Source: Trypanosoma brucei
Taxonomy: Eukaryota
Assembly: GCA_000002445.1 (NCBI GenBank)
Contig: CP000071.1
Span: 1,824,001-1,888,000, forward strand
Reading direction: 5' to 3'
Length of the DNA stretch: 64,000 nucleotides
Part shown: positions 12,244 to 44,061 of the stretch, piece by piece
Layout: every line of letters begins with the position of its first letter
Position numbering within the stretch: the first letter of the stretch is position 1
Made by a program: the position numbers and the translations under genes
The notes under the pieces: model-generated
Told to the model about the DNA's origin: nothing
The model's database searches: none
Seen by the model: the letters and a program-made list of their open reading frames with translations, nothing else

Positions 12244-13254
12244 ATGAAGAAGGCTTTGATCTCGGATTTCTTTCGTGAGGGAGTAAATGTGGCTGCGCGG
12301 GGTGTAAGCGAATGCAATGGAGCTACTGCGCCTCAACTTCATTCTCGGTGTGATTCCAGCATAGATGATGTGGACAACCGAAGTGTTGGTTGTTGTCACA
12401 GTCGTTGCGATAGCGCAGGGAGCGAGTGGGTGTGCCCTGAACTGCATGAGAAACGCTCAGAGCGGGAAATCCTCCTCCTCACTCCATCCGTCGCCGCGCC
12501 CCAACATTACGACAAAAGAGAAAAGTTAAATGAAGCCGATTCCCTACACTTGAAACATGCAGCGGAGTATGAAATCATCGTCCCTGCTGTGGCCCGCGCG
12601 CTTCAACATGTGGTGGAGGCTCATGAAACCTGGCGGCTGGAGATGTCTTCATCTGCTGGTGGCATACGTGTGCGGAAAAGTCTCATTTCCAACAGTAGTG
12701 CCGCACATGCTGCTACAGATGTTGCTGCTGCATGTGGTTCTGAGGGCACCGTGAGAGAAAAGAAAAGGAATCACTATCCGCAGGTATTTGAATCAGCAGT
12801 GCCTCCACCCTTCACGCTCCTCCACTACGTGCAGATGCTGGCAAACCATACATTTGTATCGCCATCCGTCCTTGTTGCAGCGTGTTTATATACAGATCGA
12901 TTTATTGAACAGTGGTCCGACTTGCGGTTAACATTGAACAATGTATTCAAGATCTTTCTTACGGCTGTGCGCGTTGCCAACAAAATTCTGGACATTAGAG
13001 TACTAAATAATGAGGACTTCGCCGCTGTTGGTGGGGTGAGTAACCCGGAACTCAATGCCATGGAAAAGATATTTACATGGGGTCTACGATTTGACTTGTA
13101 CATCAGCTCAACGGAGTTTGACCGGTACGTCACCGGTCTCATGTCTCAATCTTCCACAAAACCTTTTAAGCAGGTCGGTTGCACTTGCAAAATCACGAAG
13201 TCAAACATTATGATTGAGGTACCTGCAGAGGCAGTGGAAGGCGCAGCAGTTTGA
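12244..13254 (+). CDS. PHO80-like cyclin (short paralogue)
   Basis: The track start at 12202 is a GTG. The first in-frame ATG is at 12244. The cyclin box is LLHYVQMLANHTFVSPSVLVAACLYTDRF...IFLTAVRVANKILDIRVLNNEDFAAVGGVSNPELNAMEKIFTWGLRFDLYISSTEFDRY. From memory, T. brucei has adjacent PHO80-type cyclins CYC10 and CYC11. I cannot verify that here. Confidence 0.8.
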   Translation: MKKALISDFFREGVNVAARGVSECNGATAPQLHSRCDSSIDDVDNRSVGCCHSRCDSAGSEWVCPELHEKRSEREILLLTPSVAAPQHYDKREKLNEADSLHLKHAAEYEIIVPAVARALQHVVEAHETWRLEMSSSAGGIRVRKSLISNSSAAHAATDVAAACGSEGTVREKKRNHYPQVFESAVPPPFTLLHYVQMLANHTFVSPSVLVAACLYTDRFIEQWSDLRLTLNNVFKIFLTAVRVANKILDIRVLNNEDFAAVGGVSNPELNAMEKIFTWGLRFDLYISSTEFDRYVTGLMSQSSTKPFKQVGCTCKITKSNIMIEVPAEAVEGAAV

Positions 13255-14716
13255 GCAAATCTCTCCTTTTTCATACCATAATATAATATTATTGGTAGTT
13301 CTCCTTCTTATCTTATCTTCTTCATCTTTTTTTCATATTCTCTTTTTTTTTCAAGTTTTTGTCTCCTTATGAGAGGTTGGTTGACAAGTGACTGCAACGA
13401 AATGCTTAGGCAAAAGTGAGAGGGGGAAAGTTTTTAAAAAAAGAAAAGAAGTGAGATATATGTGTGAAACAATGAGAGATTATTTTAAGTTCATTACTTA
13501 CCAATTTGTTTTCTCCTTTGGGTGCGAGTTAGGTTAAGGGAGAAATAAATCAATTACCACGGGATATAAATGTTTATATTTGTGTGAGTGCTTTTGTTTT
13601 TTTTTGCTTTATTTTTATTTGTCCGTGATTTTTTCTTTCCATTTCCTCTTTGTTTTTCATTTTCTGAGAGCTTCTTCTTGTTGTTGAGCGGAAGTTTCCA
13701 ACTGTTTTGTTTTTGTTTTTACCATCATTTACTTCCTTCTATTTCTTATTTTTCATTAATTCATTCAGTTTTTTTTGTTTTTGTTACGCCTTATTTACTT
13801 CTCTTCCCCACCACTATCATTTTCTTTTTGTTGTTGTTGAAGAAAGTTTTGTTCTTTTTTTTTTTTTTGATCGATTGATTTTGTTGTTTTTAGTTTGTTT
13901 GTTTTTGTTGTTTTTGTTGTTTGTGTGTTGCAATCGGCTGTGAAGATTTGCGTTTTTGTTTTTTTTTTGTGTGTGTGTGTTTGTTTTGGGGAAAAATAAA
14001 CGCCGTGGCGGCTTCACCATGCTTTTTTTTATTGTTTTTGCTTATGAAAAGGGATAATTTTTTTTTTTTAAAAAGAAAGTGATAAGTAACAAAGAGAAAT
14101 TTTTTTAAAAAAAGGTTAAAGTGCGTGGGGTAGAAATCAAAAAGAAAATGAAGAGAAAGAAAGTTTTTTCTTCTGCTTTTGTTGTGCCACTGCGAAGCTA
14201 AATGAAAGAGGGGAAGTAAACAAGTATATAAGTATATATTTATGTTTATTTATGTATACTTGTTTAAATGTACATTTATGTACAAATGAGGCAAACCAAA
14301 AAAAAAAGCAGAGGAAAAGAGGATTTTCTTCCCTTTTTATTTTATTTTTTTCTTTTGGATTCACTCCTGTTACGCATTGTTACGCCTTTATGTATTATTA
14401 TCATTATCATTATTATTATTATTACTATTATTATTCGGAAAGTATGACGATAAAAGTGAGAAGGCGAGTAGGTGAAATCACTCATATTTAAAGAAAAAGA
14501 AAAGGGTTGAAGGGAAGGAAAACAGAATGTATTCAAATGTATGCTTGTGTTTGTCTCTTTTTTTTTTATATATATTTTTCGAAAAAAAAAAAAGGAAGGG
14601 AAAAAAATGGACTTGCACTGGGAAACTTACAATAAAAGCAACTTATATTTGAAAGCAATAGGACGAAATAATATTAAATGAAGTGGTAATTTAATATTTT
14701 GTTCAATGTTAAATTT

Positions 14717-14748
14717 TCCCTTCCCCTCCCCCTCCCCCTCCCCCCTCT
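14717..14748. repeat. C-rich (CCCCT)n tract (G-rich on the minus strand)
   Basis: Read directly: cccttcccctccccctccccctcccccctc. Confidence 0.85.
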
Positions 14749-16065
14749 TTCGATTCCTTTTCTTTTTTGCTTTATTATCGTCATAACTATAACAATAATT
14801 ATTATTACTATCATTGTTACTTCTTTTATCATTATAATAATTTTCTATTAATATCATTTATTATTATTATTATTTATATTTGTGTGTAAGGCGCTGAAAG
14901 TAGCAGGAGAAGGAAAAAATAAAATAAAATAAAGACCAAAGAAAATATCAAAGAAAATAGCGAAGCAGAGATAAAATGATGAAATTATTAAAGAGTCAAT
15001 GGGTGTATTTAAGTGAATTGAGTGAATTTGCATTTGGAAGGTTTGGGAATTGAAATAATAACGGTGAGGGAGTTTTGATGGCTAACGGTGAGAAATGGAA
15101 ATAGAGAGAGTTTGTTTTTTTTTTGGTTTGTTTTTTTTTTGGTTTGTTTTTTTTTGGTGATTTACTTTCGCGACCCCTGCAGTTATTGTTGCGACCTCTG
15201 GATTTGTTCCACAGGGCTGCAGGTTTCTTTCACCTGTTATCTTTTTGTTTTATTTTGTTTTGTATTGCTTTTCACAAAAAAAAGAGAAAAAAAATAATAA
15301 TAATAAACGAAAAACTTTTTGTATAATGGTGCGTCACGTTTCATACAAACCATATCTTTAATATTTATATTTATCCATTTATTTACAAATAAATATTTAT
15401 AGTTATTTATCCCACTTCACTTCATCATGAGGTATATTCCGCTTCTAAACATAAATGTACCGGAATTTCTACCCTCTTTTTTTAAAAAAAAATAAAAATA
15501 AAAAGAATACTGACGGTTTTCATGCGAGTAACAAACTAAAAGCAAATAATTATTACCGTTGTGTTGTATGCTCATACGGTTGTTCAAAGCGTAGAGGTAA
15601 AAAAGAGAAGAAGAATAATAATAATAGTTTTATATTATTATTTTTTAAAAAAAGAAAGAAAGAAAGAAGAGAAAAATTAAAAATAAGAATAAAATTTTTC
15701 ATACCACCGTTCTTCCTGTCCTTGTCATCCTTCACCATTGAATTCCTTCAACTCTGTCCCCAATTGCAAAAGTCGCTTTTGCTTTCGTGTGTGTTTGCGT
15801 GTGTTTTTTTTCCTCCCTTCCCCCTTTAATTTCATTATTTTAAATTTATTTCTCTACAGCAACACCTCCTCACATCTTTCATTTCATTTCATTTTTTTTA
15901 TTGAAAACGTCAACATCTTTCGGTTTATATCTTTCGTTCCATTCATCGTTTTTTTTTCTTCTTCTCGTTGTTGTTGTTGTTGTTGTTTTCGCCATGTGGG
16001 CATGCGGGTGTATTTTCCCATTTCTTTTTATCTTTTGAGAATAAAATTTTTATACCGAATTTTTT

Positions 16066-16068
<3 letters not shown>

Positions 16069-16098
<30 letters not shown>
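16069..16098. repeat. (AT)15 microsatellite
   Basis: Read directly: atatatatatatatatatatatatatatat. Confidence 0.9.
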
Positions 16099-16101
<3 letters not shown>

Positions 16102-17800
16102 TTCCCCTTTTAATTTTATTTTTCAAACTTCACACCCCACACACACCCGCCTCACACATTCAAACAGACAAATACGCGCAAGCACGCGTGGTAAAAAAAA
16201 TAATAATAATAATAAATAAATAAAAATAGAAAAAGAGACATCCACGTCTTATTATCAGTAATATTAACACTAATGATTATTATTATCGTTATTATATCAA
16301 TGGTTATAATAATTATTGTTGTTATCATTACTGATGGATCCTTTTGGCGTGTTCATAAACAAACACCCGTCCCTTTTTGTATATATTTATTATTTATATC
16401 TACTTGTGAACGTTTATTATTACTATAAGGAAAAACAACAGCAACGATAAGGTGAAAGGAAAAAAGAAAAAAATAAAGTATGAAAGGAAAAAACAAAAAA
16501 AGAATAATGATGAAAAGAAAGTCATATAGGTTCCATGTCATTTTATTACCCTTTTTCTTTTTGACGCTGCTTTATGTTTTTTTTATATGTTTATATTTAT
16601 ATTTTCTTTTTCTTTTCGTTAATTTTTATACAGGTCTTCCATAACATTTTAAATCTAATTTGTTATTATTACTATCATTACAGTTTTTTTTTTCTTTGGG
16701 TCGTTAACACTGTTTCATATCCATGCTTGGATGTTAGTGTTTGACCGGAAGCGTCATCGGAAAATCATTTTCGACCATTTTTTTTTTTACTTTTCTTTCT
16801 TTTTTTGTATTTGCATATGTTCTTTTCTTTTCTTTTTTTTTCCTCATTCTTTTTTTGTTTGCGAATTAAAGGTAATGAGGCAAAAATACTTTGGTGGTCG
16901 CCTCTTACATGTGTTCATGTTCATGTTTATGTTTATGTTTATGTGTGTGTCTGTGTTTTGACTTTATGAGTAGTTGGATGCCGATTTTACGTCAGAATTA
17001 CATTTCACAACACATTTCCCATTCACTTCTTTTTTTTTTCCTCGCTATTGTTTCGCTTACTTTTCCATTCCATAATTCGCAATGGATGCGCAAGTGCTCG
17101 TATTTTGTTTTTTTTTTGTTGTTGTTGTTGCATTACGTGCTATTGATATTGTTTACTTCTATCGGTAATGCGTGATCATCTCTTATTTAATCAATCAAGT
17201 ATTTATTCTTCCTTATTTCTTTTTTCTATCTTACTATTTTGATAATCATTTATTAGTGAAAGTAAAAGGAATTGTTGTCATTAGGAAGTATAAGTTGAGA
17301 ATCAAATAGAATAAAAAGTTGCATCAAGCTGATAAACGACCTGAGACAAACGGCACGAAGAAATAGGGAAGGAAAATACGACAATTAGACAATCACAGCA
17401 TTTGAGGTTATATATATATATATATCTCTGTGTGTGTGTGTGTGCGTTTCATTATTTCCTTTGGGATTTTTAATTCTCCAGTGAAAATAAGGCATTTTCA
17501 CTACAACTGATTGATCGATACCCACTTTTCTCTCTCTCTTTCTCTTTCCTTTCACCGTTGGGCACAAAGTACTCCGTTTATCCCCTTGTTTCCTGGGTTT
17601 TTGTTACGCAGACGCAAAAGTGTCTGAAAATAAGAGGATAGGCAAAAAAAAAAAAGTAATACAAAAGGGAAGAAATTTCTTTCCTTTTTTTTCTTTTTTG
17701 CAGAAGGGAAACAAAAAGAAGTACAAAGTTATTGATAGTATTATTTAATCTCTCTAAATCCGGTGACTTGCGCCGCTATTGTTGACTGCTTCACCGACAG

Positions 17801-17842
17801 CATTATTTTTTTTTTTTTGTCGACTCTCCACGCTTCGCTCAC
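17801..17842 (+). promoter_or_regulatory. Polypyrimidine tract immediately upstream of the long cyclin paralogue
   Basis: cattatttttttttttttgtcgactctccacgcttcgctcac directly precedes the ATG at 17843. This would give a very short 5'UTR, so the acceptor AG may lie further upstream. Confidence 0.45.
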
Positions 17843-20206
17843 ATGACTGCTCAAACCCCCTCAGGGAAGGCGCATTGCGCTGATCATCAGACGGCTGATA
17901 TGTCGTTGTGGGAACTACCAGTGGATGAACCGTTTCCCCTCGTACAGTTGGTACTTTCTATCCATACACTTTACAATCTCCCGCCGGAACTGGGCCGACT
18001 TGACCCACGCTATGAGCAATTAGAAATTGTGATGTGGCCGGTTGTGAAGTACACATATCGTGAGCGGCGAATCATGCATCTCCCATTACCGGAGCACGTC
18101 TTTCCTGTCTCTGTTACCGCCATGGTGTTGCGAGGTGACACATATTTGATTGACTTTGATGGTATAAAGAAGGATGCCACATGTGAGTCAAGCACTTCAC
18201 TGAGCAGTTCTCCATCATTGGAAGCCCCAGAGGGAAGCAGTGGCGAGCAACCCGTTATTGTAAAGGGAAACTCCGCCACGCTACAGTTCCCGTGTCCCAC
18301 TGGGTTGAGGGCGGTGGTTCGGGTCTCAATTGGAGTCCGCCAGCGCCGGTTAGGCTTCTCTGCAGTGCGGTGGATCACTGAAAACGCAAATCCACGTACC
18401 ACATCGGATGGCATTGGCGTCTTTTCAGTTGCAACGGAGGAGGTTTATCGGACGAAGTTAGTCACACGTGTTGTGGGCCACAGCGTTGGTGCCATGATTT
18501 GCTCTCTTGGGGTCAACCCGTATGATGGTCGCGACGTTATTGTGCAGCGCCTCCTACGCGACAAGGAGCGGTTTACTTCCACATACGTCTCCCAGAGGCC
18601 CGTGCTGGAAAAGGCGAATGTAGAGGCGATGCTGCGAGATGGCTACAGTGAGCAGCTGATTTACCGTCACATGCTTTTGCTTGTCGAACCCAATCACTAC
18701 AAGATGAGGTTGGAAGCCCTATTCACAATGTACGATCTCAATAGGCGCCCGAGTTGGTGGAGAGACTCGTTGCTTCAGACTGATTACATTCTGCGGGAGG
18801 AGGAACTTATTCGACGTGTGTGTGTAGAGATCGGACCTGAATGCAGTGCAACATCCCCACGCTACCGTCTGTGGGCGTTCCGCAAAAAGTATTCCCTCAG
18901 TGAGACGAGTATTGTTTCATGCTTGCGGCCCATTATCAACTCCAGTGTTACTGAAGCACTTCTCTCCGAACCGGGGACCATTTTCGCTGCACTCACTCGC
19001 CGTTTCGGGTGCGAACCGCTGCCAACGGCGTATCTCTTTCCACCGCGAAGTTACGAAGGGGAGTATCGTACATTTATCTTTGAAGCACTGAGCCTTCCGC
19101 TGGGGCCGTTTATGGGTAAGTACACTGACGTGTCACACATCGCACGGGCCAAAAGGGCCCCTTTCACATCGTCACCGTACGAGCAGCCGCTTGCAAAGGT
19201 TGCGGCGGGAAGTCCGCACGGTGGCGTGATGAGTGAAGTGGATGCACTGCGCGCGAAGCATGCACCGGAGTTTGTACAGATTGTGCCTCCTATTGCCGCT
19301 GCGTTACGCGCCGTAGTGGAGCAGAGTGGGAAGTTACCACTGGAACAACAAGAAAAGGCGAACGCGGTAACACATATCTTCTGTGAGAGGCAAATGTCCC
19401 CGCAGGGGCCCTTCCATGATTTCATGCACCGACTGGCGGATCTGACGTTTATTTCACCCGCTACACTTCTTGGAGCGGCAATACTCCTTGACCGCCTCTG
19501 TATGCGGCGGCCTGATATCCTTGTCACGGAGTTGAATGCACCACGTCTCTTCCTCACCTCTGCGCGCGTTGTGTCGAAGGTTCTGGAGCTGCGGAGCGTC
19601 AGCAACCGTTGCTTCGCCAACGCCTTCGGGGTGAATACCAAGACGCTTAACCTGTGGGAAGAATTCTTTATCAAGATGCTCAAGTTTGACCTCTGCATTA
19701 AGCCACAGGAATTCAAGGAGTACACAAACTTACTTTTTACGTCGGGTGCCCCGCCAGTGCGGGTAGCGGCTTCTCCAATATCGAGATTCCGCATTCATAA
19801 CGACAATTTGTGCACGCGGATGGGGTCTCTAACGCGGAAATGTGAAGCAACAACAGCGCTGTCGAGCAGGTCCCTCCGCTCCACAGCCGTTGAAATACCA
19901 AACATGTACACCTACAACAAAAGGTACGGCCCGAGGCAAGGCGCAGATACTGGTTTGGATGGCAGCAATGTTGTTATTGGGCGTGAGGATGATGCAAGAA
20001 ACGCTAGTGCTGCACGGGACATAAAAGCTGCAGCAGGAGGCTCGGGCGGCTCATTGAGTACTTTTGAAGCTGGAACTATGGGTTGTTTATCACACGTAAA
20101 TGACGTGGGGATCCGACGGGGTACAGAACCGACCATTTTGCCTCGAAAAATATGCAATGGAAGGAATTTGAGCCCCTGTCTGACCGTGGCAAGGCGAGGG
20201 AGTTGA
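17843..20206 (+). CDS. PHO80-like cyclin (long paralogue with ~450-aa N-terminal extension)
   Basis: The ORF starts with ATG. The C-terminal cyclin box FMHRLADLTFISPATLLGAAILLDRL...LFLTSARVVSKVLELRSVSNRCFANAFGVNTKTLNLWEEFFIKMLKFDLCIKPQEFKEY is clearly paralogous to the cyclin box of the gene at 12244-13254. Confidence 0.8.
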   Translation: MTAQTPSGKAHCADHQTADMSLWELPVDEPFPLVQLVLSIHTLYNLPPELGRLDPRYEQLEIVMWPVVKYTYRERRIMHLPLPEHVFPVSVTAMVLRGDTYLIDFDGIKKDATCESSTSLSSSPSLEAPEGSSGEQPVIVKGNSATLQFPCPTGLRAVVRVSIGVRQRRLGFSAVRWITENANPRTTSDGIGVFSVATEEVYRTKLVTRVVGHSVGAMICSLGVNPYDGRDVIVQRLLRDKERFTSTYVSQRPVLEKANVEAMLRDGYSEQLIYRHMLLLVEPNHYKMRLEALFTMYDLNRRPSWWRDSLLQTDYILREEELIRRVCVEIGPECSATSPRYRLWAFRKKYSLSETSIVSCLRPIINSSVTEALLSEPGTIFAALTRRFGCEPLPTAYLFPPRSYEGEYRTFIFEALSLPLGPFMGKYTDVSHIARAKRAPFTSSPYEQPLAKVAAGSPHGGVMSEVDALRAKHAPEFVQIVPPIAAALRAVVEQSGKLPLEQQEKANAVTHIFCERQMSPQGPFHDFMHRLADLTFISPATLLGAAILLDRLCMRRPDILVTELNAPRLFLTSARVVSKVLELRSVSNRCFANAFGVNTKTLNLWEEFFIKMLKFDLCIKPQEFKEYTNLLFTSGAPPVRVAASPISRFRIHNDNLCTRMGSLTRKCEATTALSSRSLRSTAVEIPNMYTYNKRYGPRQGADTGLDGSNVVIGREDDARNASAARDIKAAAGGSGGSLSTFEAGTMGCLSHVNDVGIRRGTEPTILPRKICNGRNLSPCLTVARRGS

Positions 20207-20770
20207 AACTATGGCAGATTATGCACACCAGAACTTTCCTCACATTTTCGTTTTTGAGTTACTGTTTTTTTAATTTATTTCCTTACCTTCCCTTCCCTCC
20301 GTTTCTCTTCGCATGAATAAACGGAAATGTTGTAGAATGACAGAGCTGCGATACTTATGGGGTATGGTGTCTCTAATAAGTGAAGTGTGAACTTGGTACC
20401 CACCCCCTTCCTCTCCAGAGTAAAATAAAGGGGGGAAAGCAGAGCAAAGTGAAGAAAGAAGAAAGAAGAAAGAAAAACGCTCATATTTGTGGTGTTTGTT
20501 CTTTTTTTACCTTTCTTTTCCTCGTCCATATATATATATATATATGTGTGTGTGTGCTTTCCTCTAGTTTTCCATGTTTGTTATTTGACTACTATCATTT
20601 CCATCAGTGTTTTATACTTGTCAACACATCGTATCGATATATCGCCATTTTATACATATTTTTATAATTATATCTTTTTTATTAAATTTGGATTTGCCAG
20701 TGTTTCTGTCCTTCTTTCTTTTTTTGTTTTTTGTTTTAATATTCACCTTCTTCTCAACACTTCCTATGCA

Positions 20771-20806
<36 letters not shown>
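20771..20806. repeat. (AC)n(AT)n compound alternating purine-pyrimidine microsatellite
   Basis: Read directly: acacacacacacacacatatatatatatatatatat. A mirror copy (AT)n(GT)n lies at 20529-20556. Confidence 0.9.
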
Positions 20807-22912
20807 GCGCACAGACAACTTTCAGTCGTTGTTATGTCAGCGCCTGCATGGCTGCGTTGTTTTTTTTTTCCTTGTTTAACTTTTGCGTGTTTTTCTTTTT
20901 TGAGAAACTCGTACTATCGGTGTAACGAAATGAATTGATAATAGCAAAGCAAAGCGAATGGGAAAAATATGCGCGTTTGAATGATTGAGAACCTCAAGTG
21001 TAAAGAAGAAAGATGAACAAAAAAAATGGGAAGTGTGGAGGAAGTGAAAAGAAAAGAAAAGAAAAGAGGGAAAGGGGATATGCAAATGGTTATATCGAGA
21101 ATTCTTTTAATTCCCCTCCTTCAGAGGTGTAACTTAGGCATTAAATAACGAATTTAGTTTAAATTTAAATTAATTTGTTGGTCCGGAAGAAAAAGGAAGA
21201 GAGAAAAATAGGAAAAGTGGGAAGTCTGCAAATTTGATGTTAATCCCCGAAAGCCCACTGAGTGTATTTATATGCACATTTGTGTGTTTGTGAGAGTTTT
21301 CATGTCGCACGACTGCGGGCTTGTATTTGGTTTTTTTTCGCCTCTCACCATTGTTTTCACATATGTGTGTATTATAAATACTCTCATTATTATTATTATT
21401 GTTATTATTTATAGATATTATTATTACTATTGCTGTTGTTGTTGTTGTTTTCGGCATTGTGCATTCCTTGGTATGTGCTACTTAGAGCCATGTCATAGGT
21501 TCCCTCTGCTCTTTACTCCCGTTCTCCCGCACTTCCCCCCTTCGCTTAATTAATTATAACAGTTATTATTTTCACGGTCTCAGGTGCAAATCTACAAAGA
21601 CTTTGTTTCATTATATATTTTTACGGTCGATTCTGTTTGCTTATGTGATAATATTGTTTTTTATGTATGTGAGTGAAGAGACTAAAAGGGATTTCAAAAA
21701 AATTTAATGCTAAATGAGTGGTCGTAGAGAATGAAATTTAATGAGTTGATGATGAAAATGTGGGAAAGAGAATGGGCAGTAAACAGAAACTAATTTTAAA
21801 GCAAATAAAAGTAAGAAAGTGAGTGTGAATACGGAAATATTGATGGAAAGATGAATAAAGCGCGAGGGAACGGCAAAGAGAAGGAGAGGAATGGCACATA
21901 AAATAATGAACCCCTCATATCTCTTTTTGTTTTGTGTGTGTGTGTGTGTATATATGGGTGTGTTACCTTTTCGTTTTCTCCTCTCCTCGTATGAGTTTGT
22001 GTACAATTGTTGTTTTCTTTCCCCCCTTTTATTGGTTCACCCCTCTGGTGTGACCCTTTGGGTTCTTGTTTAGTCTACTGCCATGTGGCACTTCGTCAAC
22101 CTCTGTGAGTTACCCTTTTACAGACATTTTAGTTTGTCCGTTCACTAGCTTTTCACGCACGCGCTGTTTGTTTGCTTCCTTTCGGTTTTTGTTTTGTTTC
22201 AGCCACGCCATTGAAACTGTAGAAAATGAGGGAAAGGGTAGAAAAGGAGTTACGGCCGTTAGCTTCATTACGTCATCCAAAATATATGCGTTTTTGTTGT
22301 TATTGTTGTCTCTGTTTTTTTTTGGGGGGGTTCCGGGAAGCGGGTGCCGCGAGGGTAGCCGCCGAGTTTTTCCAGCCGTTATCCGCGTACGTTCGTGGGC
22401 GCAAATGCTTTGTTTTATTTCAATTTTTTTTCATTTTTTTACTTTTTATTTTTCTGACTTTTTTGTTCTTGAGTGGGTTTCTGTAGTATTTGGGGTGTAT
22501 CGCCACGAAATCGCCACAACTGTTCGTTTTCCCCCAGGATTCCCTCCTTTTCAATATATGCAATACACAGCTTTACCTCCGGGAGCAGCGCCTTAGAGAT
22601 TTCGGTACGCAAAGGAAGAAATAAACATATGTGTATATGTTACTGTTCATTTAAAATATATACGTGTGGAGTGTGACTGAGTGCACGTCAGTGTCTCGTT
22701 TCAGAAGTAGTGAACGGTCTCTTGTTCTAATCCTGTCAGTAGCTTCTCTTGTGCTTTAGCCTTCACATAATTTGATCCACAGGCCCAATTCATACTACAT
22801 TATTAACCCCCGTCGAGGCGCGGACATTCACAGGAAAGGCACACGCAGAAAGGGATATAAAAGGAAAGGGAAGGGGAAAAAAAAACCGGTGCTGCAATAG
22901 CGGCTTTGGCAT

Positions 22913-37900: not shown

Positions 37901-38444
37901 AGTGCTTGAGCGGTAGGTTTACAAATGAATTTGGTGGTGAAGGTAAAGTTCAGTGTGTATGATTGTTTCACATGTTATTTGTTACAGATTCATTATTATT
38001 ATTATTATTGTTGTTGTTGTTGTTGTCACTACTTTTTTTTTTAAAAATCCGCGAACGAAATAAGAATGAAAATGGACAGTGCCTTGTGAACCTAAAGTGC
38101 CACGTAGTGTTGTCGCTTAGTCTGGAGCTACATTGTATACCAAACACTTTTTCGCACCACTCGTTTCTTCTTTTTTTTTTTGGTTTCGTTCGGTTTTGTC
38201 TTGCGTGTTCGGTTTTCTTTTCCCTCCTTTGGGTAAAGTATTAGCACGCTAAAGAAAAGATCAACGGCAGAGTCCCCCTTTTTTTGTTTTTGTTTTTGAA
38301 TTGCTTTTAGCGGCGCGGAACTCACAAAAGTTCGCACAACCTAAACGCATACACAGCACATCAAAGTGGAAGAAAAAAAAGAAGGAAGACTTCAAAATAA
38401 CAATAACAATTTAAAAGAAATAACAAGTAATACCAACTACAGCA

Positions 38445-38762
38445 ATGGTAAAGTTGACTCATGAAGATACGCAGCGCATCAAAACTGCTTTTCTCTCTTA
38501 TTCACAGGGTCAACCGAAGGTGACGGAGCAGATGATGGACCAACTTATTTGTGGTGCCATTCCGGGAATTTCATGGGAAGAACTTCAGGCAAAGAAGGGC
38601 CCCAAGGCAGCGCAGGGATATGACCGCAGCGCGTTCTTTTCATTGGTTACTTCTGACGACCGGTACGTGCAGTTTATTGTCGCCAACTTCCCCCCAGCAC
38701 CTGAAGAGGAAAAGGCGCCGCAGGTCGATGCATTGGAATTGAAAACTGCAAAGGGTTTCTAA
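38445..38762 (+). CDS. Small hypothetical protein, 105 aa
   Basis: The ORF starts with ATG and is non-repetitive. Its codon usage is similar to the neighbours, and a T-rich tract lies ~150 bp upstream. I do not recognise the family. Confidence 0.4.
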   Translation: MVKLTHEDTQRIKTAFLSYSQGQPKVTEQMMDQLICGAIPGISWEELQAKKGPKAAQGYDRSAFFSLVTSDDRYVQFIVANFPPAPEEEKAPQVDALELKTAKGF

Positions 38763-39234
38763 GTTGTGCAGTTGTGCCGGTGCCGGGAAGCAAAAAAAAA
38801 AAGAAGAAAAAAGGAAAGATTTCTCAAGAGGAGCTGCAGGAAGAAATGCGGATGAAGCGAACCCGTATGCGAACTAATGGGAAAATCACATACAAGTGAA
38901 GAGATGAATATATATATATATATATATATGGAGGAGTTGCTACGGCACTTGATGATACATATGTAAGTGAGCCAACTCATATGCGTGTACGTGCATGGAT
39001 GTGTGTATATAAAGGAAAGTTAGGTGGAGTAAGAATTCATACACACGCACATATATATATATATTTTTATTTATGGATATTTTCTGTGGAGGTGCGGGCT
39101 CCACTAAAGTAATAGAGGGAATGAGAAGGTTGGCTAGAGGAATACGTGCCTGTACCTGAATGTGGACCTTGTATTGTTGTTGTTGTTGTTGTTTCCTTTT
39201 CCACGAACCCTTCAATATATACCACCTTCTTTCG

Positions 39235-39235
<1 letters not shown>

Positions 39236-39271
<36 letters not shown>
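39236..39271. repeat. (TA)n(TG)n compound microsatellite
   Basis: Read directly: tatatatatatatatatatat followed by gtgtgtgtgtgtgtgt. Confidence 0.9.
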
Positions 39272-39460
39272 ACATGTATGTGTGTCTGAAAGGCATATAA
39301 TAAAGCTTATATCAAATATGTTTTTTTTTTTTCGTTGCTTATGGATCATCCCTTACCCGCGTTTCCGCGATCGTGTGATGAACTTTTCGTTCTATTTATG
39401 ATAGCGGTTTCTACTGTATTTGTTAGCGACCCGTGGCTCTTGTTTATATATCTTTATGGG

Positions 39461-39481
39461 CATTTCCTTTTTTTTTTTTTA
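39461..39481 (+). promoter_or_regulatory. T-rich polypyrimidine tract upstream of the PABPN1-like gene
   Basis: catttcc followed by T17, 30 nt upstream of the ATG at 39511. AG dinucleotides follow at 39496-39500. Confidence 0.5.
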
Positions 39482-39510
39482 CGTATGTGTGATGAAGGAA
39501 GGATTGAACA

Positions 39511-40065
39511 ATGGAAGACAATCTTGCGGCAGAAATTGCGCGAATAGAGGCGGAGTTGGAAGCGGACCGACAGCAGCGCGAAAAACAACAACAGCAACAA
39601 CAACAACAACAGCAGCAGCAGCAGCATCAAATGAGCATGCAAAACATGATGCCCAGCTTTGGTGTATCCGCAGTTCCACAACCAATGCAACATCAACATC
39701 AACATCAGCAGTCACAACAACAGTCACCACAGCAAATGGGTGTATTGCATGGGCAAGTCAGTGGTTCAACATCACATGCGCCTGGTCAACCTCACCATTT
39801 CTCAAAGGATAGCGATGGGCGATCCATTTTTGTTGGAAATCTTCCTAAAGGTGATAATGGCGGACCCACAACCACGCCAGAGGAGTTGGCGCATTTATTT
39901 GCCGACTGTGGTCCCATCCTCAACTGTACGTTACTGCGCGATCGCACAACTGGTGAGTTGAAGGGCACGGCATATGTTGAATTTTCCACTTACACCGGAA
40001 TGGGTAAAGCTATTGATACTAAAAACAACACCATGTTCAAGGGTAGTACTTTAATTGTATGTTGA
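39511..40065 (+). CDS. Nuclear poly(A)-binding protein PABPN1/PABP2-like (coiled coil + poly-Gln + single RRM)
   Basis: The ORF starts with ATG immediately after a T17 polyY tract. The N-terminus has a coiled coil (AAEIARIEAELEADRQQREKQ). The RRM RSIFVGNLP...ELAHLFADCGPILNCTLLRDRTTGELKGTAYVEFSTYTGMGKAI...FKGSTLIV is collinear with the PABPN1 RRM (SIYVGNVDY...GFAYIEF...FRGRQIKV). Confidence 0.7.
   Translation: MEDNLAAEIARIEAELEADRQQREKQQQQQQQQQQQQQHQMSMQNMMPSFGVSAVPQPMQHQHQHQQSQQQSPQQMGVLHGQVSGSTSHAPGQPHHFSKDSDGRSIFVGNLPKGDNGGPTTTPEELAHLFADCGPILNCTLLRDRTTGELKGTAYVEFSTYTGMGKAIDTKNNTMFKGSTLIVC
39584..39630 (+). repeat. Coding (CAA/CAG)n repeat encoding poly-Gln in the PABPN1-like gene
   Basis: Read directly. 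It is translated as QQQQQQQQQQQQQQQQ. Confidence 0.9.
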
Positions 40066-41016
40066 CCGTGAGTTCCTGTACATAATGGGGCGCATTTTTT
40101 TGTGTGCGTTCCCTTCAACTTCTCCCCACTTTTCCCACTCCCCTCTACAAACAGGGGAACGAACTGAAGGGTGCGAGAGGAAGTGATTGAGTGAATAATA
40201 ACAACAACAATAACAACAACAACAACATTTAAGTAAATAAATAAACAAATAATAGTGAATAGTAATAGTGGTAATACTAGTAGTGATTTTAATTTCTTTT
40301 CTTTTCTTTTCTTTTTTTTTTGTTTTTGAAAAAAAAAAGAAAATCAAAATCAAAATAATAAAGAGAGTGAAAAACGTTAGCAGCATAATGACACAACCAT
40401 TGAAAAATGCTTCACAACAAAAACAAACTAAACAATGGAAGAAAAACAATAATAATAATAATAATAATAATATAATGGCGCTAACAGTACATACACCACT
40501 AAATGAAGTATTGGAAACGGGGTGGAAAGAAAACTTTTATATAATATATATATATATATATCAAATTACTGAGCAACAACAAAAATAACAATAGCAACAA
40601 AGAAATGCACTAAAAACCAAAAATAAAAAAAGAATATGGGGCTTTAGACCTCTTCTATCGTCACCCCCCATAGATGGCTTAGATTCACAAAAAAAAAAAT
40701 AAAAGAAAGAAAGAAAGAATATTGGTACTGTCACCAAAATTAACAAATATAACAATGATAGTGCAACAGTATCATCCACCAACAAAAAATATATATATAT
40801 AAGTAGCACGCGCAAAAAAAAAAAAAGAACATACACAAACATTGCGTAAATGCCCTCATTCACTTACTTGCAATCCCTCAGCCGCTCCCCTCCTCCTCTC
40901 TTCATTCTCCTCTCTCATTTTTTTTTAAATATATATATATATATACTCATGAATCAATGTGAAATCACTTCTTCTTCTTTCCACTCCTCCATTCTTTTTT
41001 TTTCTTTAATACTTCG

Positions 41017-41253
41017 ATGGCTGAAAAGGTGACGAAAAAACGCTCATCATTCCGACCGGAACGAGCGCGTGGTGGACGTGGCGGCGGAGGGACCGGGCGG
41101 GGAGCTCAAATGCCTGATCCCTATCAAGCAATGATGGCACTTATGGGAATGGTGGCAGGCGGGGTAATGGCACGTGGTGGACGTGGCGGTGGTCGTGGCA
41201 GTCGGGGTGGAAATTCGCAGCGTGTGATGGGTGGATTTCAACCCTTTCAATAA
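41017..41253 (+). CDS. Small RGG-box protein, 78 aa (tentative)
   Basis: The ORF starts with ATG directly after a strong polyY tract (tcttctttccactcctccattctttttttttctttaatacttcg). It has three RGG/RGGRGG clusters flanking a Met/Ala-rich middle. Being short and low-complexity, the call is tentative. Confidence 0.35.
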   Translation: MAEKVTKKRSSFRPERARGGRGGGGTGRGAQMPDPYQAMMALMGMVAGGVMARGGRGGGRGSRGGNSQRVMGGFQPFQ

Positions 41254-42577
41254 ATTTATTTCTCCCCATCACCACCACCACCACAATCACAACCACAACC
41301 ACAACCACCAGGCCTACTTGTCAATACTTCGGTATCGCATGATGTGAAGAAAAAAGAGGAATGGAAAAAAAAAATGGAAAAGAGGAATAGAAGGAGAAAA
41401 GGAAGTGGATGGGTAGTTGAATGGAATGGAATGGAGGGACAATGACAAAAAAGCGCTGTTTTGACTGTTGTTGTCATTCGCGGCGTGTTATTGTTTTAAT
41501 TCCAATAGCCCTCTCATCCTCGACCCCTTTCTTTCTTTTCGCTGTCCTGCTTTTCTTTTTTTTAAATTAAAAAAAAAAAACTTCTGCCTCTTCCTCTCTC
41601 CTTTTCTTTCCAGCTGCAGATGCCGTTGGGAGGACGAAGGTGGTGCCGTAAGTCCAACACCGAAAGAAATACGGATCTAAAGTCAACGGTGTGTGGATGG
41701 TTGTGTGGATAATACAAAACTAACAAATAAAATGAAGGTGAAACAATGGGGGAGGGAGGTGGAGATTAAAAAAAGAAAAAAGTGAAGGAGGGTTGAAGAA
41801 TGAAGAAAGAAAGAAAGAAAGAGAGGGGGTAACTGGTGTGGGCGCGAGAGGAGAAAGCGTGCTGAGGATAGGAAAAGTTGAATGGAAAGACAAAACAAAA
41901 AAGATGAAAAGTGTGTGGTACAAGTGATGAAGGTGTGGCGAGAAATGTCCCGATGCGCCATCATCACATTTGTGTACCATCACTTCTCCTTCCACGCTTT
42001 TGTTTGTTTGTTTGTTTTTGTATTCGCTCTTATCCCTCTTTCCATTGCTTCAATGATGCTGTGGTGACGGAGAACCCTCTTGGGCGTCCGGTTGCGTGGC
42101 ATCGCTGCCCTTCTAACCGTTTCTTTCAGCGTGGTATCTCCTTCACATTCCCGAAGCCTCTTATTTTGCCTTTTTTAAAAAAGAAAAAAGAGAAAAAAGA
42201 TAGAAAGGTGTGGGGAGTGGGGAAGAATTGGAAAAGGGATAGCGAAAACTATGGAGAAGATAAGCGATACAGGGAAACAAACTCACGCGTGCAGTTGCAT
42301 GAGTGCCAGGTTGTTCAATCCCTTAACGAGAAGTGACAAAATAATATAACGAAAAGGGAAAAGGGAAATAAAGGAAACGAAAAGCATGTGACGGCAATAT
42401 TTCCTCCCACTTCCACTTGCTGCATTTGGTACGTGCACCGCTCCATCAAACAAAACAGCTATGTTGATAATGCCACGAATGTGCAGGTGGAACACGGTGG
42501 CTTGTGATAACTCTCCATGTCATTGATTTTTGTTGCTCTTCCATTCCTCAACCCCTCCCGCTTCTACACCGTGCTTG

Positions 42578-42650
42578 ACTTCTTTCTTTCTTCTTTTTTT
42601 TCTTTTCTTTTTCCCTCTCTCTCTCTTTCAATTTCACTTTCCCCCTTTGT
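42578..42650 (+). promoter_or_regulatory. Polypyrimidine tract plus downstream AG, a candidate SL trans-splice acceptor signal for ICP
   Basis: There is a 70-nt run of C and T (tctttctttcttcttttttttcttttctttttccctctctctctctttcaatttcactttccccctttg) ~85 nt upstream of the ICP ATG. This is the canonical kinetoplastid pre-mRNA processing signal. The exact acceptor AG was not mapped. Confidence 0.6.
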
Positions 42651-42733
42651 CGTGACACACACACACACACACACACTCCACTAGAAAAGCTTTTTTGTTT
42701 TCTTTTCTCCCCGCGAAAGTGACCTAATACAAT

Positions 42734-43099
42734 ATGTCCCACAACCTATTTACTGAGGAAGACAACAACAAGACCATCCGTATGGTCATTGGTGAAACCT
42801 TCACGATTGAACTTAAGAGCAACCCAACCACCGGCTACACGTGGCTTCGTTCAGGTCTCGCCGGTACCGAACTCAGCGATTGCACCTTCGCCATCCAAAG
42901 CAAATTTAACAACCGTGCGCCTCATGATAACCACAAGAATCACAGACGCCTATTGGTTGGTGCGGGTGGCACGATGGTACTCGAAGTGAAAGCCCTTAAA
43001 CCCGGGAAGCACACGCTTTCACTCGCTTACGGACGCCCATGGGTTGGATTCAATGCCGCAGCCAAACGTTACAACATTCACGTCGAGGCCACCGCATAA
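42734..43099 (+). CDS. ICP: Inhibitor of cysteine peptidase, chagasin family (ICP)
   Basis: The ORF starts with ATG after a long polyY/(CA)n tract. It has all three chagasin-family loops: NPTTGY (L2), GAGGT (L4) and RPW (L6). It is 121 aa with a beta-rich composition. It matches my memory of T. brucei ICP. Confidence 0.9.
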   Translation: MSHNLFTEEDNNKTIRMVIGETFTIELKSNPTTGYTWLRSGLAGTELSDCTFAIQSKFNNRAPHDNHKNHRRLLVGAGGTMVLEVKALKPGKHTLSLAYGRPWVGFNAAAKRYNIHVEATA

Positions 43100-44061
43100 A
43101 TAAGGCGGTATGTGGAAGTGGAGAAGGAAGGAAATAAATAAATATATATATATTTATTTATTTATATAGGATTCTGCTTTTTTGTTTGTTTGTTTGTTTT
43201 TGTACAGATGTATAATCGTTTAGTGTACGGGGGGGGGAGGAGAAGAAGAAAGAGGGAAGAGGAAGTAGTACATATGAAGGGTAAAATAATTCCCTGCCTG
43301 CCTTCACTTTTATGTTTTCTTTTAATCAGCGAGAGCAGAACAAATTGAAGCAAAGAAATGAAAGTGAAAAATTAACAGTTTACGTGATTGCTTCCTGAAA
43401 TAACATGAAAAGGAGGTTTTCCTTTTTTATCATTTTTCCTTTGACTTTTGTACGATGAAGAAGGAAAGGGCATATCCGTCAAAAGGAAAAATGAGGAAAA
43501 TCTAACTTCATCTGGAGGGGAAAGGGAAGGTGGAAAACTGAATACGCTACTTTGATGTCCTTTTTCCCCTTGTGTTCTTCCCTGTTTCTCCGTTTTTCTT
43601 TTTTTTTTTTTACCCCTTGTGTGGATGCTTCATATTATTATTTTTATTATTGCTATACCCTTGCTTCGCCTTAGGAAAAAGTTATACCAATGACATAGTG
43701 GAAACCAGAGGTGTTCAAAACAAAACGAGTAGGGAAAGGGGGTGATATGCTTTACTTTCTTCTGTTGTTATTTGCTGTTTCCGTGCTGCCGTTTGGGATG
43801 CCCGTTTTCCCTTCTTTTTCAAACTGCTTCAGTTTAATAACTTATGTTTACTCCATCCCGCCTTTTATTCTCGAATTTGAGCAGGCGTAACTTTCAGTTG
43901 CAAGGGTGACTGGAAGTGTCATTCAGTTGCACACAAGTCTTAACGCCCTAGCAATAGAAGAAATACCTACGTTTAACTCTAACCATAGCAAAGACAAAAG
44001 TAGAACAAGCGTCACGTTGGAAAAGCAAGTGAATTTGTTTGGAAACTTGGGGAGACGCGTA

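What the first reader, a model, noticed from the sequence alone, without database searches (positions are those of the whole stretch)
13255..17842. Unusually long (4.6 kb) ORF-free, microsatellite-rich spacer inside a unidirectional gene array
Typical trypanosome intergenic distances are a few hundred bp to ~1.5 kb. This spacer contains no coding-like ORF on either strand. It is a mosaic of T, A, TA, GTT, TTA and TG repeats, plus a (CCCCT)n tract (14717-14748) and a ttggtttgttttttttt x3 direct repeat (15118-15165). It could be an exceptionally long regulatory 3'UTR of the upstream cyclin. Long 3'UTRs are a known mode of stage regulation in trypanosomes. It could also harbour unannotated ncRNA, or mark a site of replication-slippage expansion.
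Basis: seen in the sequence. Interest (0 to 1): 0.5.

Follow-up and report, generated by a model that had tools for sequence, protein, structure and literature searches.

The report
Long 3'UTR of trypanosome cyclin CYC10
The 4.6-kb "empty" stretch between two cyclin genes on Trypanosoma brucei chromosome 8 is mostly the already-annotated 3.9-kb 3' untranslated region of cyclin CYC10 plus the leader of the next gene, which is a known kind of feature in this parasite.

Summary
Window 13255-17842 is a 4588-bp gap with no convincing coding ORF. It is AT-rich (GC 0.30) and low in complexity, and it is the longest of 27 gaps in a one-directional gene array (median 595 bp).

The window is T. brucei TREU927 chr8:1,824,001-1,888,000. 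The flanking genes are two CYC2/PHO80-like cyclins, CYC10 (Tb927.8.6340) and CYC11 (Tb927.8.6350).

Published UTR annotation (Trenaman 2024) gives CYC10 a 3858-nt 3'UTR, equal to window 13255-17112, or 84% of the gap. That end lies 94 nt upstream of a polypyrimidine tract and AG acceptor. The last 672 nt contain no ATG (8.6 expected), as a CYC11 5'UTR would.

- **Assembly:** four Trypanozoon assemblies give 4568-4594 bp, so this is not an assembly error.
- **Slippage:** it occurs but changes only 1-16 bp per event.
- **ncRNA:** I found no Rfam family, tRNA or block conserved across species.
- **Synteny:** the gap after the CYC10 orthologue is 3.5-9.8 times the local median in the six other taxa where it could be measured.

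Verdict: an ordinary, already-annotated long 3'UTR of a regulator gene. A regulatory role is plausible, because CYC10 mRNA rises on heat shock and in vivo, but it is untested. Interest is low.

The parts
12244..13254 (+). CYC10 (Tb927.8.6340) coding sequence, 336 aa, a CYC2/PHO80-like cyclin
   Evidence: The protein is identical to XP_847464.1 / Q57YN5. Pfam Cyclin PF08613 matches at E = 2.7e-17. The ORF length of 1011 nt matches the published table. Gene naming follows PMC1914216 Table 2.
13255..17112 (+). Annotated CYC10 3'UTR, 3858 nt (84% of the spacer)
   Evidence: Trenaman 2024 Supplementary Data 1, row 948, gives UTR_Start 1837255, UTR_End 1841112, gene Tb927.8.6340, strand +. The offset of 1,824,000 is confirmed by the UTR starts of Tb927.8.6370 and Tb927.8.6390, which match ORF ends 28321 and 32763. 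The annotated end falls inside a T10 run, so it is approximate.
14409..14424 (+). Perfect (AUU)n tract; a second one lies at 14858-14874
   Evidence: There are 11 overlapping matches to the (AUU)4 12-mer, against 0.01 in shuffles. This is the ZC3H11 consensus, but the CYC10 row in the pull-down table reads 0.84, which is not enriched.
14714..14751 (+). C-rich polypyrimidine tract, irregular C4-6T units
   Evidence: It varies by 6-12 bp among Trypanozoon assemblies.
15110..15155 (+). 16-nt tandem repeat GTTTGTTTTTTTTTTG, 2.9 copies
   Evidence: TRF, 100% matches. T. equiperdum OVI lacks one whole unit and gambiense has a 5-bp deletion.
16254..16335 (+). Long imperfect hairpin inside the 3'UTR (37-nt arms, 8-nt loop)
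   Evidence: It is the longest local inverted repeat in the 64-kb window. As RNA it folds at -33.4 kcal/mol (z = -5.5) on the + strand and -20.7 kcal/mol (z = -3.4) on the - strand. The only substitution in gambiense and T. b. equiperdum IVM-t1, C16287T, turns a C-G pair into U.G. Function is unknown. The stem is partly built from (AUU)/(AAU) low-complexity sequence.
17206..17256 (+). Polypyrimidine tract (17206-17232) and first downstream AG (17255-17256): candidate CYC11 spliced-leader acceptor that would set the CYC10 poly(A) site
   Evidence: The tract starts 94 nt after the annotated UTR end. In T. brucei the distance from poly(A) site to polypyrimidine tract is about 100 nt (PMC6597758). 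The region is identical in four Trypanozoon assemblies apart from T-run length. Other polypyrimidine-plus-AG candidates have their AG at 17568, 17610 and 17702.
17171..17842 (+). ATG-free stretch, a 5'UTR signature for CYC11
   Evidence: No ATG in 672 nt, against 8.6 +/- 2.4 expected; 1 of 2000 dinucleotide shuffles also had none. The permuted triplets AGT, TGA and GAT occur 13, 14 and 9 times. In gambiense and IVM-t1 a G-to-A change in the (TG)n tract creates one ATG at about -405.
17843..20206 (+). CYC11 (Tb927.8.6350) coding sequence, 787 aa, a CYC2/PHO80-like cyclin
   Evidence: The protein is identical to XP_847465.1. Pfam Cyclin matches at E = 1.2e-11. The ORF length of 2364 nt matches the published table.

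Best explanation
The spacer is not empty intergenic DNA. It is transcribed as part of the RNA polymerase II polycistron and is divided between two mRNAs.

**Division of the spacer.**
- About 3.86 kb (13255-17112) is the 3'UTR of cyclin CYC10.
- About 140 nt is the processing gap.
- The last 140-590 nt is the 5'UTR of cyclin CYC11.

**Mechanism (inferred).** The spliced leader is added to CYC11 at an AG downstream of a polypyrimidine tract. The most likely site is tract 17206-17232 with AG 17255; alternatives have their AG at 17568, 17610 and 17702. This step sets the CYC10 poly(A) site about 100 nt upstream of the tract. The CYC10 mRNA would then be roughly 5 kb, about three quarters of it 3'UTR. 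The 19 or so other long polypyrimidine-plus-AG signals inside the annotated UTR must be skipped, or they give shorter isoforms.

**Function (inferred).** The U-rich, A-rich and AU-rich low-complexity blocks would serve as binding platforms for RNA-binding proteins. These would control CYC10 mRNA stability and translation, since the gene has no promoter of its own.

**Shown versus inferred.** Shown: gene identities, absence of a convincing coding ORF, the published UTR coordinates, the geometry of the processing signals, ATG depletion, assembly agreement and the conserved long gap. Inferred: the exact splice and poly(A) sites and any regulatory function.
For: - **Identity.** The flanking proteins exactly match T. 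brucei TREU927 XP_847464.1 and XP_847465.1, named CYC10 and CYC11.
- **Annotation.** The published UTR coordinates for Tb927.8.6340 are 1837255-1841112, and two other genes verify the offset.
- **Processing geometry.** The annotated end is 94 nt upstream of a 27-nt polypyrimidine tract with an AG. The known distance is about 100 nt.
- **5'UTR signature.** The final 672 nt lack any ATG.
- **No convincing coding ORF**.
- **Assembly.** Four independent Trypanozoon assemblies agree: 4588, 4594, 4568 (with 114 N) and 4588 bp. One is a gap-free chromosome-level assembly.
- **Synteny.** The gap after the CYC10 orthologue is 3.5-9.8 times the median of neighbouring gaps in gambiense, T. theileri, T. 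melophagium, T. rangeli, Leptomonas and Phytomonas. In L. major it exceeds 5.9 kb.
- **Regulated mRNA.** CYC10 mRNA rises 16.5-fold (RNA-seq) and 4.0-fold (microarray) after 41 C heat shock. CYC10 and CYC11 mRNAs are higher in trypanosomes from human blood and CSF than in culture.
- **Known class.** Long 3'UTRs are a recognised feature of trypanosome regulator mRNAs, and low-complexity sequence is typical of their UTRs.
- **Composition.** The UTR holds 14 polypurine and 20 polypyrimidine tracts of 12 nt or more, against 0.6 and 4.2 in shuffles.
Against: - **No transcript data seen.** I saw only annotation coordinates taken from a supplementary table, not read-level data. The annotated 3' end sits in a T10 run and is approximate.
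- **Reporter result.** The one reporter fragment for this UTR (first 648 nt) was not significant, with log2FC 0.38 and FDR 0.25.
- **No sequence constraint.** Between TREU927 and gambiense the spacer has 15.4 substitutions and 7.3 indels per kb. Other gaps have 9.9 and 3.2, and CDS has 6.3 substitutions per kb.
- **No conserved block.** No block is collinear with T. rangeli, T. theileri or L. major.
- **Internal signals.** There are 23 polypyrimidine-plus-AG signals in the spacer, so shorter isoforms or separate spliced and polyadenylated RNAs cannot be excluded.
- **A uATG in some strains.** Gambiense and IVM-t1 carry an ATG at about -405. This argues against a 590-nt CYC11 5'UTR being the main form in those strains.
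Confidence: 0.85

Rival explanations
1. The spacer also encodes one or more independent non-coding RNAs. These could be spliced and polyadenylated lncRNAs made from internal processing signals, or a small RNA processed from the 16254-16335 hairpin. They could exist alongside the long CYC10 mRNA or replace part of it.
For: - There are 23 polypyrimidine tracts of 18 nt or more, each followed by an AG.
- T. brucei has 1428 annotated lncRNAs that are mostly intergenic, AT-rich, spliced and polyadenylated.
- A stable hairpin that favours the + strand, -33.4 kcal/mol with z = -5.5, is the longest local inverted repeat in the window.
- The only substitution in that hairpin keeps the base pair.
Against: - No Rfam family reaches its gathering score. 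The only hit at E <= 1 is a chance-level miRNA model (E = 0.36, 23.6 bits against a threshold of 76).
- There are no tRNAs.
- No block is conserved with other trypanosomatid spacers, and no comparable hairpin occurs there.
- The hairpin stem is largely (AUU)/(AAU) low-complexity sequence, which inflates shuffle-based z-scores.
- The published annotation assigns 84% of the spacer to one UTR.
- I could not consult the lncRNA lists. The supplements of PMC9200285 are not held, and PMC10048164 has no entry for these genes.
Confidence: 0.15
2. The region is CYC10 3'UTR, but its length and repeats have no function. AT-rich low-complexity DNA built up passively through slippage and weak selection, and the length carries no regulatory information.
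For: - Substitution and indel rates are higher than in neighbouring gaps.
- All 34-35 indels between strains lie in homopolymer or microsatellite runs.
- No primary-sequence conservation extends beyond Trypanozoon.
- The reporter fragment was not significant.
- The UA(U)6 RBP10 motif is not enriched, with 2 found against 3.9 expected.
- The (AUU)n tracts do not go with ZCH311-type binding: the ZC3H11 pull-down ratio reads 0.84.
Against: - The same gene is followed by an outlier gap, 3.5-9.8 times the local median, in T. theileri, T. melophagium, T. rangeli, Leptomonas and Phytomonas. In L. major the gap exceeds 5.9 kb. These genomes include compact ones. Neutral accumulation is unlikely to recur at one orthologous position.
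- Length is stable in Trypanozoon, with a net change of 0 to +6 bp despite about 35 indel events.
- Perfect repeats account for only 15% of the length.
- CYC10 mRNA is strongly condition-dependent.
Confidence: 0.2
3. The spacer marks a chromatin or replication feature rather than a UTR. It could be a head-to-tail boundary between polycistronic transcription units (termination plus re-initiation), or a replication origin.
For: - It is the longest gap and has the lowest GC in the window.
- It contains GT-rich tracts such as 13875-13990. From my own recollection, not checked here, GT-rich sequence has been linked to Pol II start regions in T. brucei.
- A long gap at this position is conserved.
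Against: - Genes on both sides are on the same strand, with no tRNA or snRNA gene nearby.
- Cumulative GC skew shows only a slight dip across 16-18 kb and no sustained reversal.
- The published annotation has a continuous UTR across 84% of the gap.
- The downstream CYC11-to-SPRY gap is also long (2706 bp, and 2579 bp in T. rangeli). Long UTRs on two regulator genes explain this better than a single boundary.
- This cannot be tested directly with sequence tools.
Confidence: 0.03
4. The spacer length is an assembly artefact, from a collapsed or mis-joined repeat.
For: - The region is hard to assemble in other species. The T. cruzi Sylvio and T. conorhini contigs stop 237 and 367 bp after the CYC10 orthologue.
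- T. theileri has a 926-N gap and T. equiperdum OVI a 114-N gap in the spacer.
Against: - TREU927, T. b. gambiense DAL972 and the gap-free chromosome-level T. b. equiperdum IVM-t1 assembly give 4588, 4594 and 4588 bp.
- These differ by 67-71 substitutions and 34-35 small indels, so they are independent sequence.
- There is no long-period tandem array or large internal duplication.
Confidence: 0.01

Closest known systems
Multi-kilobase regulatory 3'UTRs of T. brucei regulator mRNAs, such as the RBP10 3'UTR studied in PMC8982893
   Same: - It runs from the stop codon with no convincing coding ORF.
- It is several kb of AT-rich low-complexity sequence containing many internal polypyrimidine tracts.
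- It belongs to a regulatory protein, here a cyclin, whose mRNA level depends on conditions.
- Its 3' end is set by the downstream trans-splicing signal.
   Different: - No functional dissection exists for the CYC10 UTR, and the one reporter fragment was neutral.
- The published class is said to be enriched in RNA-binding proteins and kinases, with no mention of cyclins.
- CYC10 shows little bloodstream/procyclic regulation (ratios 1.6 and 0.8). Its known responses are to heat shock and to in vivo growth.
ZC3H11 heat-shock regulon, defined by (AUU)n-repeat 3'UTRs (Droll 2013, PMC3616968)
   Same: - The UTR has two perfect (AUU)4 or longer tracts.
- The mRNA increases after heat shock.
   Different: - The CYC10 row in the ZC3H11 pull-down table reads 0.84, which is not enriched. 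I read the column meaning from the row pattern, not from the header.
- The paper states that an AUU repeat alone does not give binding: 325 genes have the motif and only 44 are enriched.
T. brucei intergenic lncRNAs such as grumpy (PMC9200285)
   Same: It is an AT-rich, non-coding, sense-strand region between protein-coding genes, and it has regular splicing and polyadenylation motifs.
   Different: - No separate transcript is documented here.
- No embedded snoRNA or Rfam family was found.
- The region is annotated as UTR.

Membership tests
Long 3'UTR of a trypanosome mRNA | A continuous sense transcript runs from the stop codon to a poly(A) site several kb downstream | not testable with these tools
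   No read-level data were available. Published UTR coordinates (1837255-1841112, 3858 nt) support it.
Long 3'UTR of a trypanosome mRNA | No protein-coding ORF within it | tested here: met
   The longest ATG ORF is 124 aa, with codon score -0.33 and GC3 0.32. Genes score +0.08 to +0.17. Indels in gambiense alter its length by a non-multiple of three.
Long 3'UTR of a trypanosome mRNA | The 3' end lies about 100 nt upstream of a polypyrimidine tract and AG used for trans-splicing of the next gene | tested here: met
   The annotated end is 17112, the polypyrimidine tract is 17206-17232 and the AG is at 17255. The rule comes from PMC6597758. Actual use of this acceptor is not shown.
Long 3'UTR of a trypanosome mRNA | The UTR confers regulation on a reporter | tested here: inconclusive
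   Only one reporter fragment is on record, covering the first 648 nt. It gave log2FC 0.38 and FDR 0.25 in bloodstream forms. The stored file was truncated.
Known structured ncRNA gene (snoRNA, tRNA, snRNA or other Rfam family) | A match to a curated covariance model or tRNA model | tested here: not met
   There were no Rfam hits at gathering score across the window and no tRNAs. The only hit at E <= 1 was mir-2943, at 23.6 bits against a threshold of 76.
ZC3H11 (AUU)n regulon | An (AUU)4 12-mer in the 3'UTR | tested here: met
   Tracts lie at 14409-14424 and 14858-14874.
ZC3H11 (AUU)n regulon | [quoted passage not shown] | tested here: not met
   The supplementary table row for Tb927.8.6340 reads 0.84. 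The column heading was inferred, not read.
Polycistron boundary or strand-switch region | A change of coding strand, or tRNA/snRNA genes at the boundary | tested here: not met
   All convincing genes are on the + strand and there is no tRNA.
Polycistron boundary or strand-switch region | H2A.Z or H4K10ac (start) or base J or H3.V (stop) chromatin marks | not testable with these tools
   No chromatin data were accessible.
Microsatellite expansion locus | Most of the length comes from one or a few expanded repeat arrays, with large length differences between strains | tested here: not met
   Perfect repeats cover 15% of the spacer, and the longest array is 30 bp, (AT)15. Differences between strains are 1-16 bp per event, and the net change is 0 to +6 bp in the gap-free assemblies.

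The most novel reading that the evidence does not exclude
An unusually long region downstream of CYC10 has been kept at the same syntenic position across Trypanosomatidae. Here that covers Trypanosoma, Leptomonas, Phytomonas and Leishmania, even though primary sequence is not retained. This could reflect an ancient requirement for extended, length-dependent or multi-site 3'UTR control of this PHO80-type (nutrient and stress) cyclin. In T. brucei the UTR may additionally carry a lineage-specific element, either the roughly 36-bp sense-strand hairpin at 16254-16335 or an embedded spliced lncRNA.
Probability: 0.15. Interest if true: 0.45.

Novelty: already known. Interest (0 to 1): 0.15.

Why it matters
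The finding mainly resolves a scan flag. A large "empty" AT-rich stretch in a trypanosome gene array turns out to be transcribed UTR, not a hidden gene or an assembly error.

The one modestly useful point is comparative. The gene after which the gap falls, CYC10, keeps an outlier downstream gap in seven other trypanosomatid taxa. Its mRNA also responds to heat shock and to in vivo conditions. Together these make the CYC10 3'UTR a reasonable candidate for dissecting post-transcriptional control of a PHO80-like cyclin. It does not open a new question.

Tried and rejected
1. **ZC3H11 binding through the (AUU)n tracts.** I first misread Droll 2013 Table 2 as a binding table. On reading it, it lists heat-shock-induced mRNAs. 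The pull-down row reads 0.84, which is not enriched. Rejected.
2. **A conserved ncRNA or element.** Sensitive blastn of the spacer against the T. rangeli, T. theileri, L. major, T. cruzi and T. conorhini downstream regions gave only low-complexity matches on both strands, none collinear. Rfam was negative at gathering score and at E <= 1.
3. **Remnant of a lost coding tail.** T. brucei CYC10 (336 aa) lacks the roughly 170-aa C-terminal tail of its orthologues. tblastn of those tails against the spacer found nothing.
4. **Growth by internal duplication.** Only low-complexity repeat families were found.
5. **Orthologue searches with CYC10 and CYC11.** Both returned only the query itself. Synteny was therefore obtained through the conserved upstream WD40-PFU-PUL gene. 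T. congolense and T. vivax loci could not be retrieved.
6. **Transcript-end data.**
   - Guegan 2022, Siegel 2010 and the DRBD18 2022 paper have no supplements held.
   - The Kolev 2010 and nanopore 2023 supplements have no entry for these genes.
7. **Logan contigs carrying CYC11 (L012, L014, L015).** They begin in low-complexity runs at about 17625-17690 and carry no spliced-leader sequence, so they say nothing about the splice site.
8. **RBP10 UA(U)6 and PUF motifs.** Neither is enriched.

Full report
**What the window is.** The two ORFs flanking the gap encode proteins identical to T. brucei brucei TREU927 XP_847464.1 and XP_847465.1, both on a 2.48-Mb contig. Both carry the PHO80-type Cyclin domain PF08613. 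Hammarton's 2007 review lists them as CYC10 (Tb927.8.6340) and CYC11 (Tb927.8.6350), both 'CYC2-like'. Their ORF lengths of 1011 and 2364 nt match a published table. So the spacer lies between two tandem cyclin genes, not after a single cyclin.

**Checking the observation.**
- The gap 13255-17842 is 4588 bp, with GC 0.297 and T 41%.
- I defined 28 plus-strand CDS by a codon-usage score. Among the 27 gaps between them this is the longest; the median is 595 bp. The next longest are 3984, 2706 and 2318 bp.
- The longest ATG ORF inside it is 124 aa at 15455-15829. It is low in complexity, scores -0.33 (genes score +0.08 to +0.17), and has GC3 0.32. In gambiense that interval carries 1-2-bp deletions and a 9-bp insertion that change its length by a non-multiple of three.
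- Minus-strand ORFs score low, and most are antisense to plus-strand genes, so the array is one-directional.
- Perfect homopolymers and microsatellites cover 15.1% of the gap. The other gaps pooled have 8.9%, ranging from 2 to 18%. This is above average but not unique.
- Two details need correcting. The C-rich tract is an irregular C4-6T run at 14714-14751. The direct repeat is a 16-nt unit present 2.9 times at 15110-15155.

**What it is.** Supplementary Data 1 of Trenaman et al. 2024 (Nat Commun, PMC11405848) has columns UTR_Start, UTR_End and UTR_Gene_ID. It gives Tb927_08_v5.1 1837255-1841112 (+) for Tb927.8.6340.
- If 1837255 is the base after the stop codon (window 13255), the offset is 1,824,000.
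- The same table's UTR starts for Tb927.8.6370 (1852322) and Tb927.8.6390 (1856764) then fall exactly one base after window ORFs ending at 28321 and 32763. This confirms the offset.
- The annotated CYC10 3'UTR is therefore window 13255-17112. That is 3858 nt, or 84% of the spacer.
- The genome-wide 3'UTR median in that paper is 388 nt and the mean is 622 nt. This UTR is about ten times the median.
- 3'UTRs of several kb are nonetheless a recognised class. Early estimates put 6% above 2 kb, some reach 5 kb or more, and the longest sit on mRNAs for regulators.

**The remaining 730 nt.**
- The spacer has 23 polypyrimidine tracts of 18 nt or more, each followed by an AG.
- The annotated UTR end at 17112 lies inside a T10 run, so it is approximate. 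It is 94 nt upstream of tract 17206-17232, whose first AG is at 17255. In T. brucei the distance from poly(A) site to polypyrimidine tract is about 100 nt.
- The stretch 17080-17262 is identical in four Trypanozoon assemblies apart from the length of the T run.
- The last 672 nt (17171-17842) contain no ATG. Shuffles give 8.6 +/- 2.4, and 1 of 2000 had none. The permuted triplets AGT, TGA and GAT occur 13, 14 and 9 times. This is the signature of a 5'UTR selected against upstream start codons.
- In gambiense and T. b. equiperdum IVM-t1 a G-to-A change in the (TG)n tract creates one ATG at about -405. The main acceptor may therefore be one of the downstream candidates, with AG at 17568, 17610 or 17702.
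- These splice and poly(A) positions are inferences. I had no read-level data.

**Assembly and slippage.**
- The spacer is 4594 bp in T. b. gambiense DAL972 (no N), 4568 bp in T. equiperdum OVI (114 N), and 4588 bp in the gap-free chromosome-level T. b. equiperdum IVM-t1 assembly.
- TREU927 differs from gambiense by 71 substitutions and 34 indel events. It differs from IVM-t1 by 67 substitutions and 35 indel events.
- Every listed indel lies in or next to a homopolymer or microsatellite run. Each changes 1-16 bp, and the net change is +6 and 0 bp.
- One copy of the 16-nt repeat is missing in OVI, and (TA)8 becomes (TA)18 in IVM-t1.
- Slippage is therefore real but does not explain the length. 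The region is not mis-assembled.
- Substitution and indel rates (15.4 and 7.3 per kb) exceed those of neighbouring gaps (9.9 and 3.2) and of CDS (6.3 substitutions). There is no sign of sequence-level constraint.

**Comparative evidence.** Searches with the cyclins themselves found only the query. I therefore reached syntenic loci through the conserved upstream WD40-PFU-PUL gene. tblastn confirmed the CYC10 orthologue in five of these loci and the CYC11 orthologue in T. rangeli and T. theileri. For T. melophagium, Leptomonas and Phytomonas the assignment rests on synteny, and where a hit is on record, the Pfam cyclin hit. The T. melophagium gene taken as the CYC10 orthologue has none.

| Taxon | Gap after the CYC10 orthologue | Ratio to local median gap |
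|---|---|---|
| T. b. gambiense | 4594 bp | 9.8 |
| T. theileri | 2904 bp (926 N) | 7.8 |
| T. melophagium | 2613 bp | 6.3 |
| T. rangeli | 2447 bp | 6.7 |
| Leptomonas pyrrhocoris | 2610 bp | 3.5 |
| Phytomonas EM1 | 2159 bp | 4.9 |
| L. major | more than 5870 bp (locus ends) | not measurable |

- The T. cruzi Sylvio and T. conorhini contigs end 237 and 367 bp after the gene.
- No primary sequence is shared beyond close relatives.
- The long downstream region is thus a conserved property of the locus while its sequence turns over. This argues against purely neutral accumulation, but it does not prove function.

**Regulation, from the literature.**
- CYC10 mRNA rises 16.5-fold by RNA-seq and 4.0-fold by microarray after 41 C heat shock of procyclic forms.
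- CYC7, CYC10 and CYC11 belong to a core set increased across heat-shock datasets.
- CYC10 and CYC11 mRNAs are higher in trypanosomes from human blood and CSF, and from rat blood, than in culture.
- Transcription is polycistronic, so such changes must be post-transcriptional. Attributing them to this UTR is an inference.
- The UTR contains two perfect (AUU)4 or longer tracts, 14 polypurine tracts and 20 polypyrimidine tracts of 12 nt or more, against 0.6 and 4.2 in shuffles.
- The CYC10 row in the ZC3H11 pull-down table reads 0.84, which is not enriched. UA(U)6 is not enriched either. The only reporter fragment on record, covering the first 648 nt, was neutral.

**ncRNA alternative.**
- No Rfam family or tRNA was found.
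- A sliding fold scan picked out one feature, an imperfect hairpin at 16254-16335 with 37-nt arms and an 8-nt loop.
- It is the longest local inverted repeat in the 64-kb window.
- It is clearly more stable on the sense strand, at -33.4 kcal/mol (z = -5.5), than on the antisense strand, at -20.7 kcal/mol (z = -3.4).
- Its only substitution in the second Trypanozoon haplotype turns C-G into U.G.
- The stem is partly (AUU)/(AAU) low-complexity sequence, and no counterpart exists in other species. I record it as unexplained rather than functional.
- Spliced and polyadenylated lncRNAs are common in T. brucei.

**Verdict.** The rest is the processing region and the CYC11 leader. The feature is an ordinary member of a known class, with a modest comparative point of interest: a conserved long downstream gap. 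Interest is 0.15.

Noticed in passing
window 16254-16335 (+): An imperfect hairpin of about 36 bp inside the CYC10 3'UTR. It is the longest local inverted repeat in the 64-kb window. It is much more stable on the sense strand (-33.4 against -20.7 kcal/mol). The only substitution between Trypanozoon haplotypes, C16287T, keeps the pair as U.G. No counterpart occurs in other species. It could be a dsRNA or Dicer substrate, or a by-product of (AUU)/(AAU) repeats.
   Followed up: partly
window 17171-17842: A 672-nt stretch immediately upstream of the CYC11 start codon with no ATG (8.6 expected; 1 of 2000 shuffles). This suggests a long CYC11 5'UTR free of upstream AUGs. In gambiense and IVM-t1 one ATG arises at about -405 within the (TG)n tract.
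   Followed up: yes
window 52354-56337: A second very long AT-rich gap (3984 bp, GC 0.34, 11.8% simple repeats) downstream of the 1079-aa ORF at 49114-52353. It is probably another 3'UTR of several kb.
   Followed up: no
window 20207-22912; L005 19455-22033: The gap after CYC11, before the SPRY-domain gene, is also long: 2706 bp in T. brucei and 2579 bp in T. rangeli. Both tandem cyclins therefore have conserved long downstream regions.
   Followed up: partly
window 12244-13254 compared with L003, L004, L005, L006 and L008: T. brucei CYC10 is 336 aa, whereas its orthologues are 506-657 aa. The difference is a low-complexity C-terminal tail of about 170 aa or more that T. brucei lacks. tblastn found no remnant of it in the spacer.
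   Followed up: partly
L004 (T. cruzi Sylvio), L008 (T. conorhini), L003 (T. theileri), L001 (T. equiperdum OVI): Assemblies break or carry N-gaps just downstream of the CYC10 orthologue. Contigs end 237 and 367 bp after the stop codon, and the spacers contain gaps of 926 N and 114 N. The region is evidently hard to assemble across species.
   Followed up: no
window 37901-45081: A 7-kb stretch holding several short plus-strand ORFs with gene-like codon scores: 38445-38762, 39511-40065, 41953-42336, 42734-43099 and 44062-44601. They are separated by AT-rich gaps and may be small genes. I did not examine them.
   Followed up: no
window 13255-17842 compared with L001, L002 and L013: The four Trypanozoon assemblies fall into two spacer haplotypes: TREU927 with T. 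equiperdum OVI, and T. b. gambiense DAL972 with T. b. equiperdum IVM-t1. The two isolates labelled equiperdum therefore carry different haplotypes at this locus.
   Followed up: no
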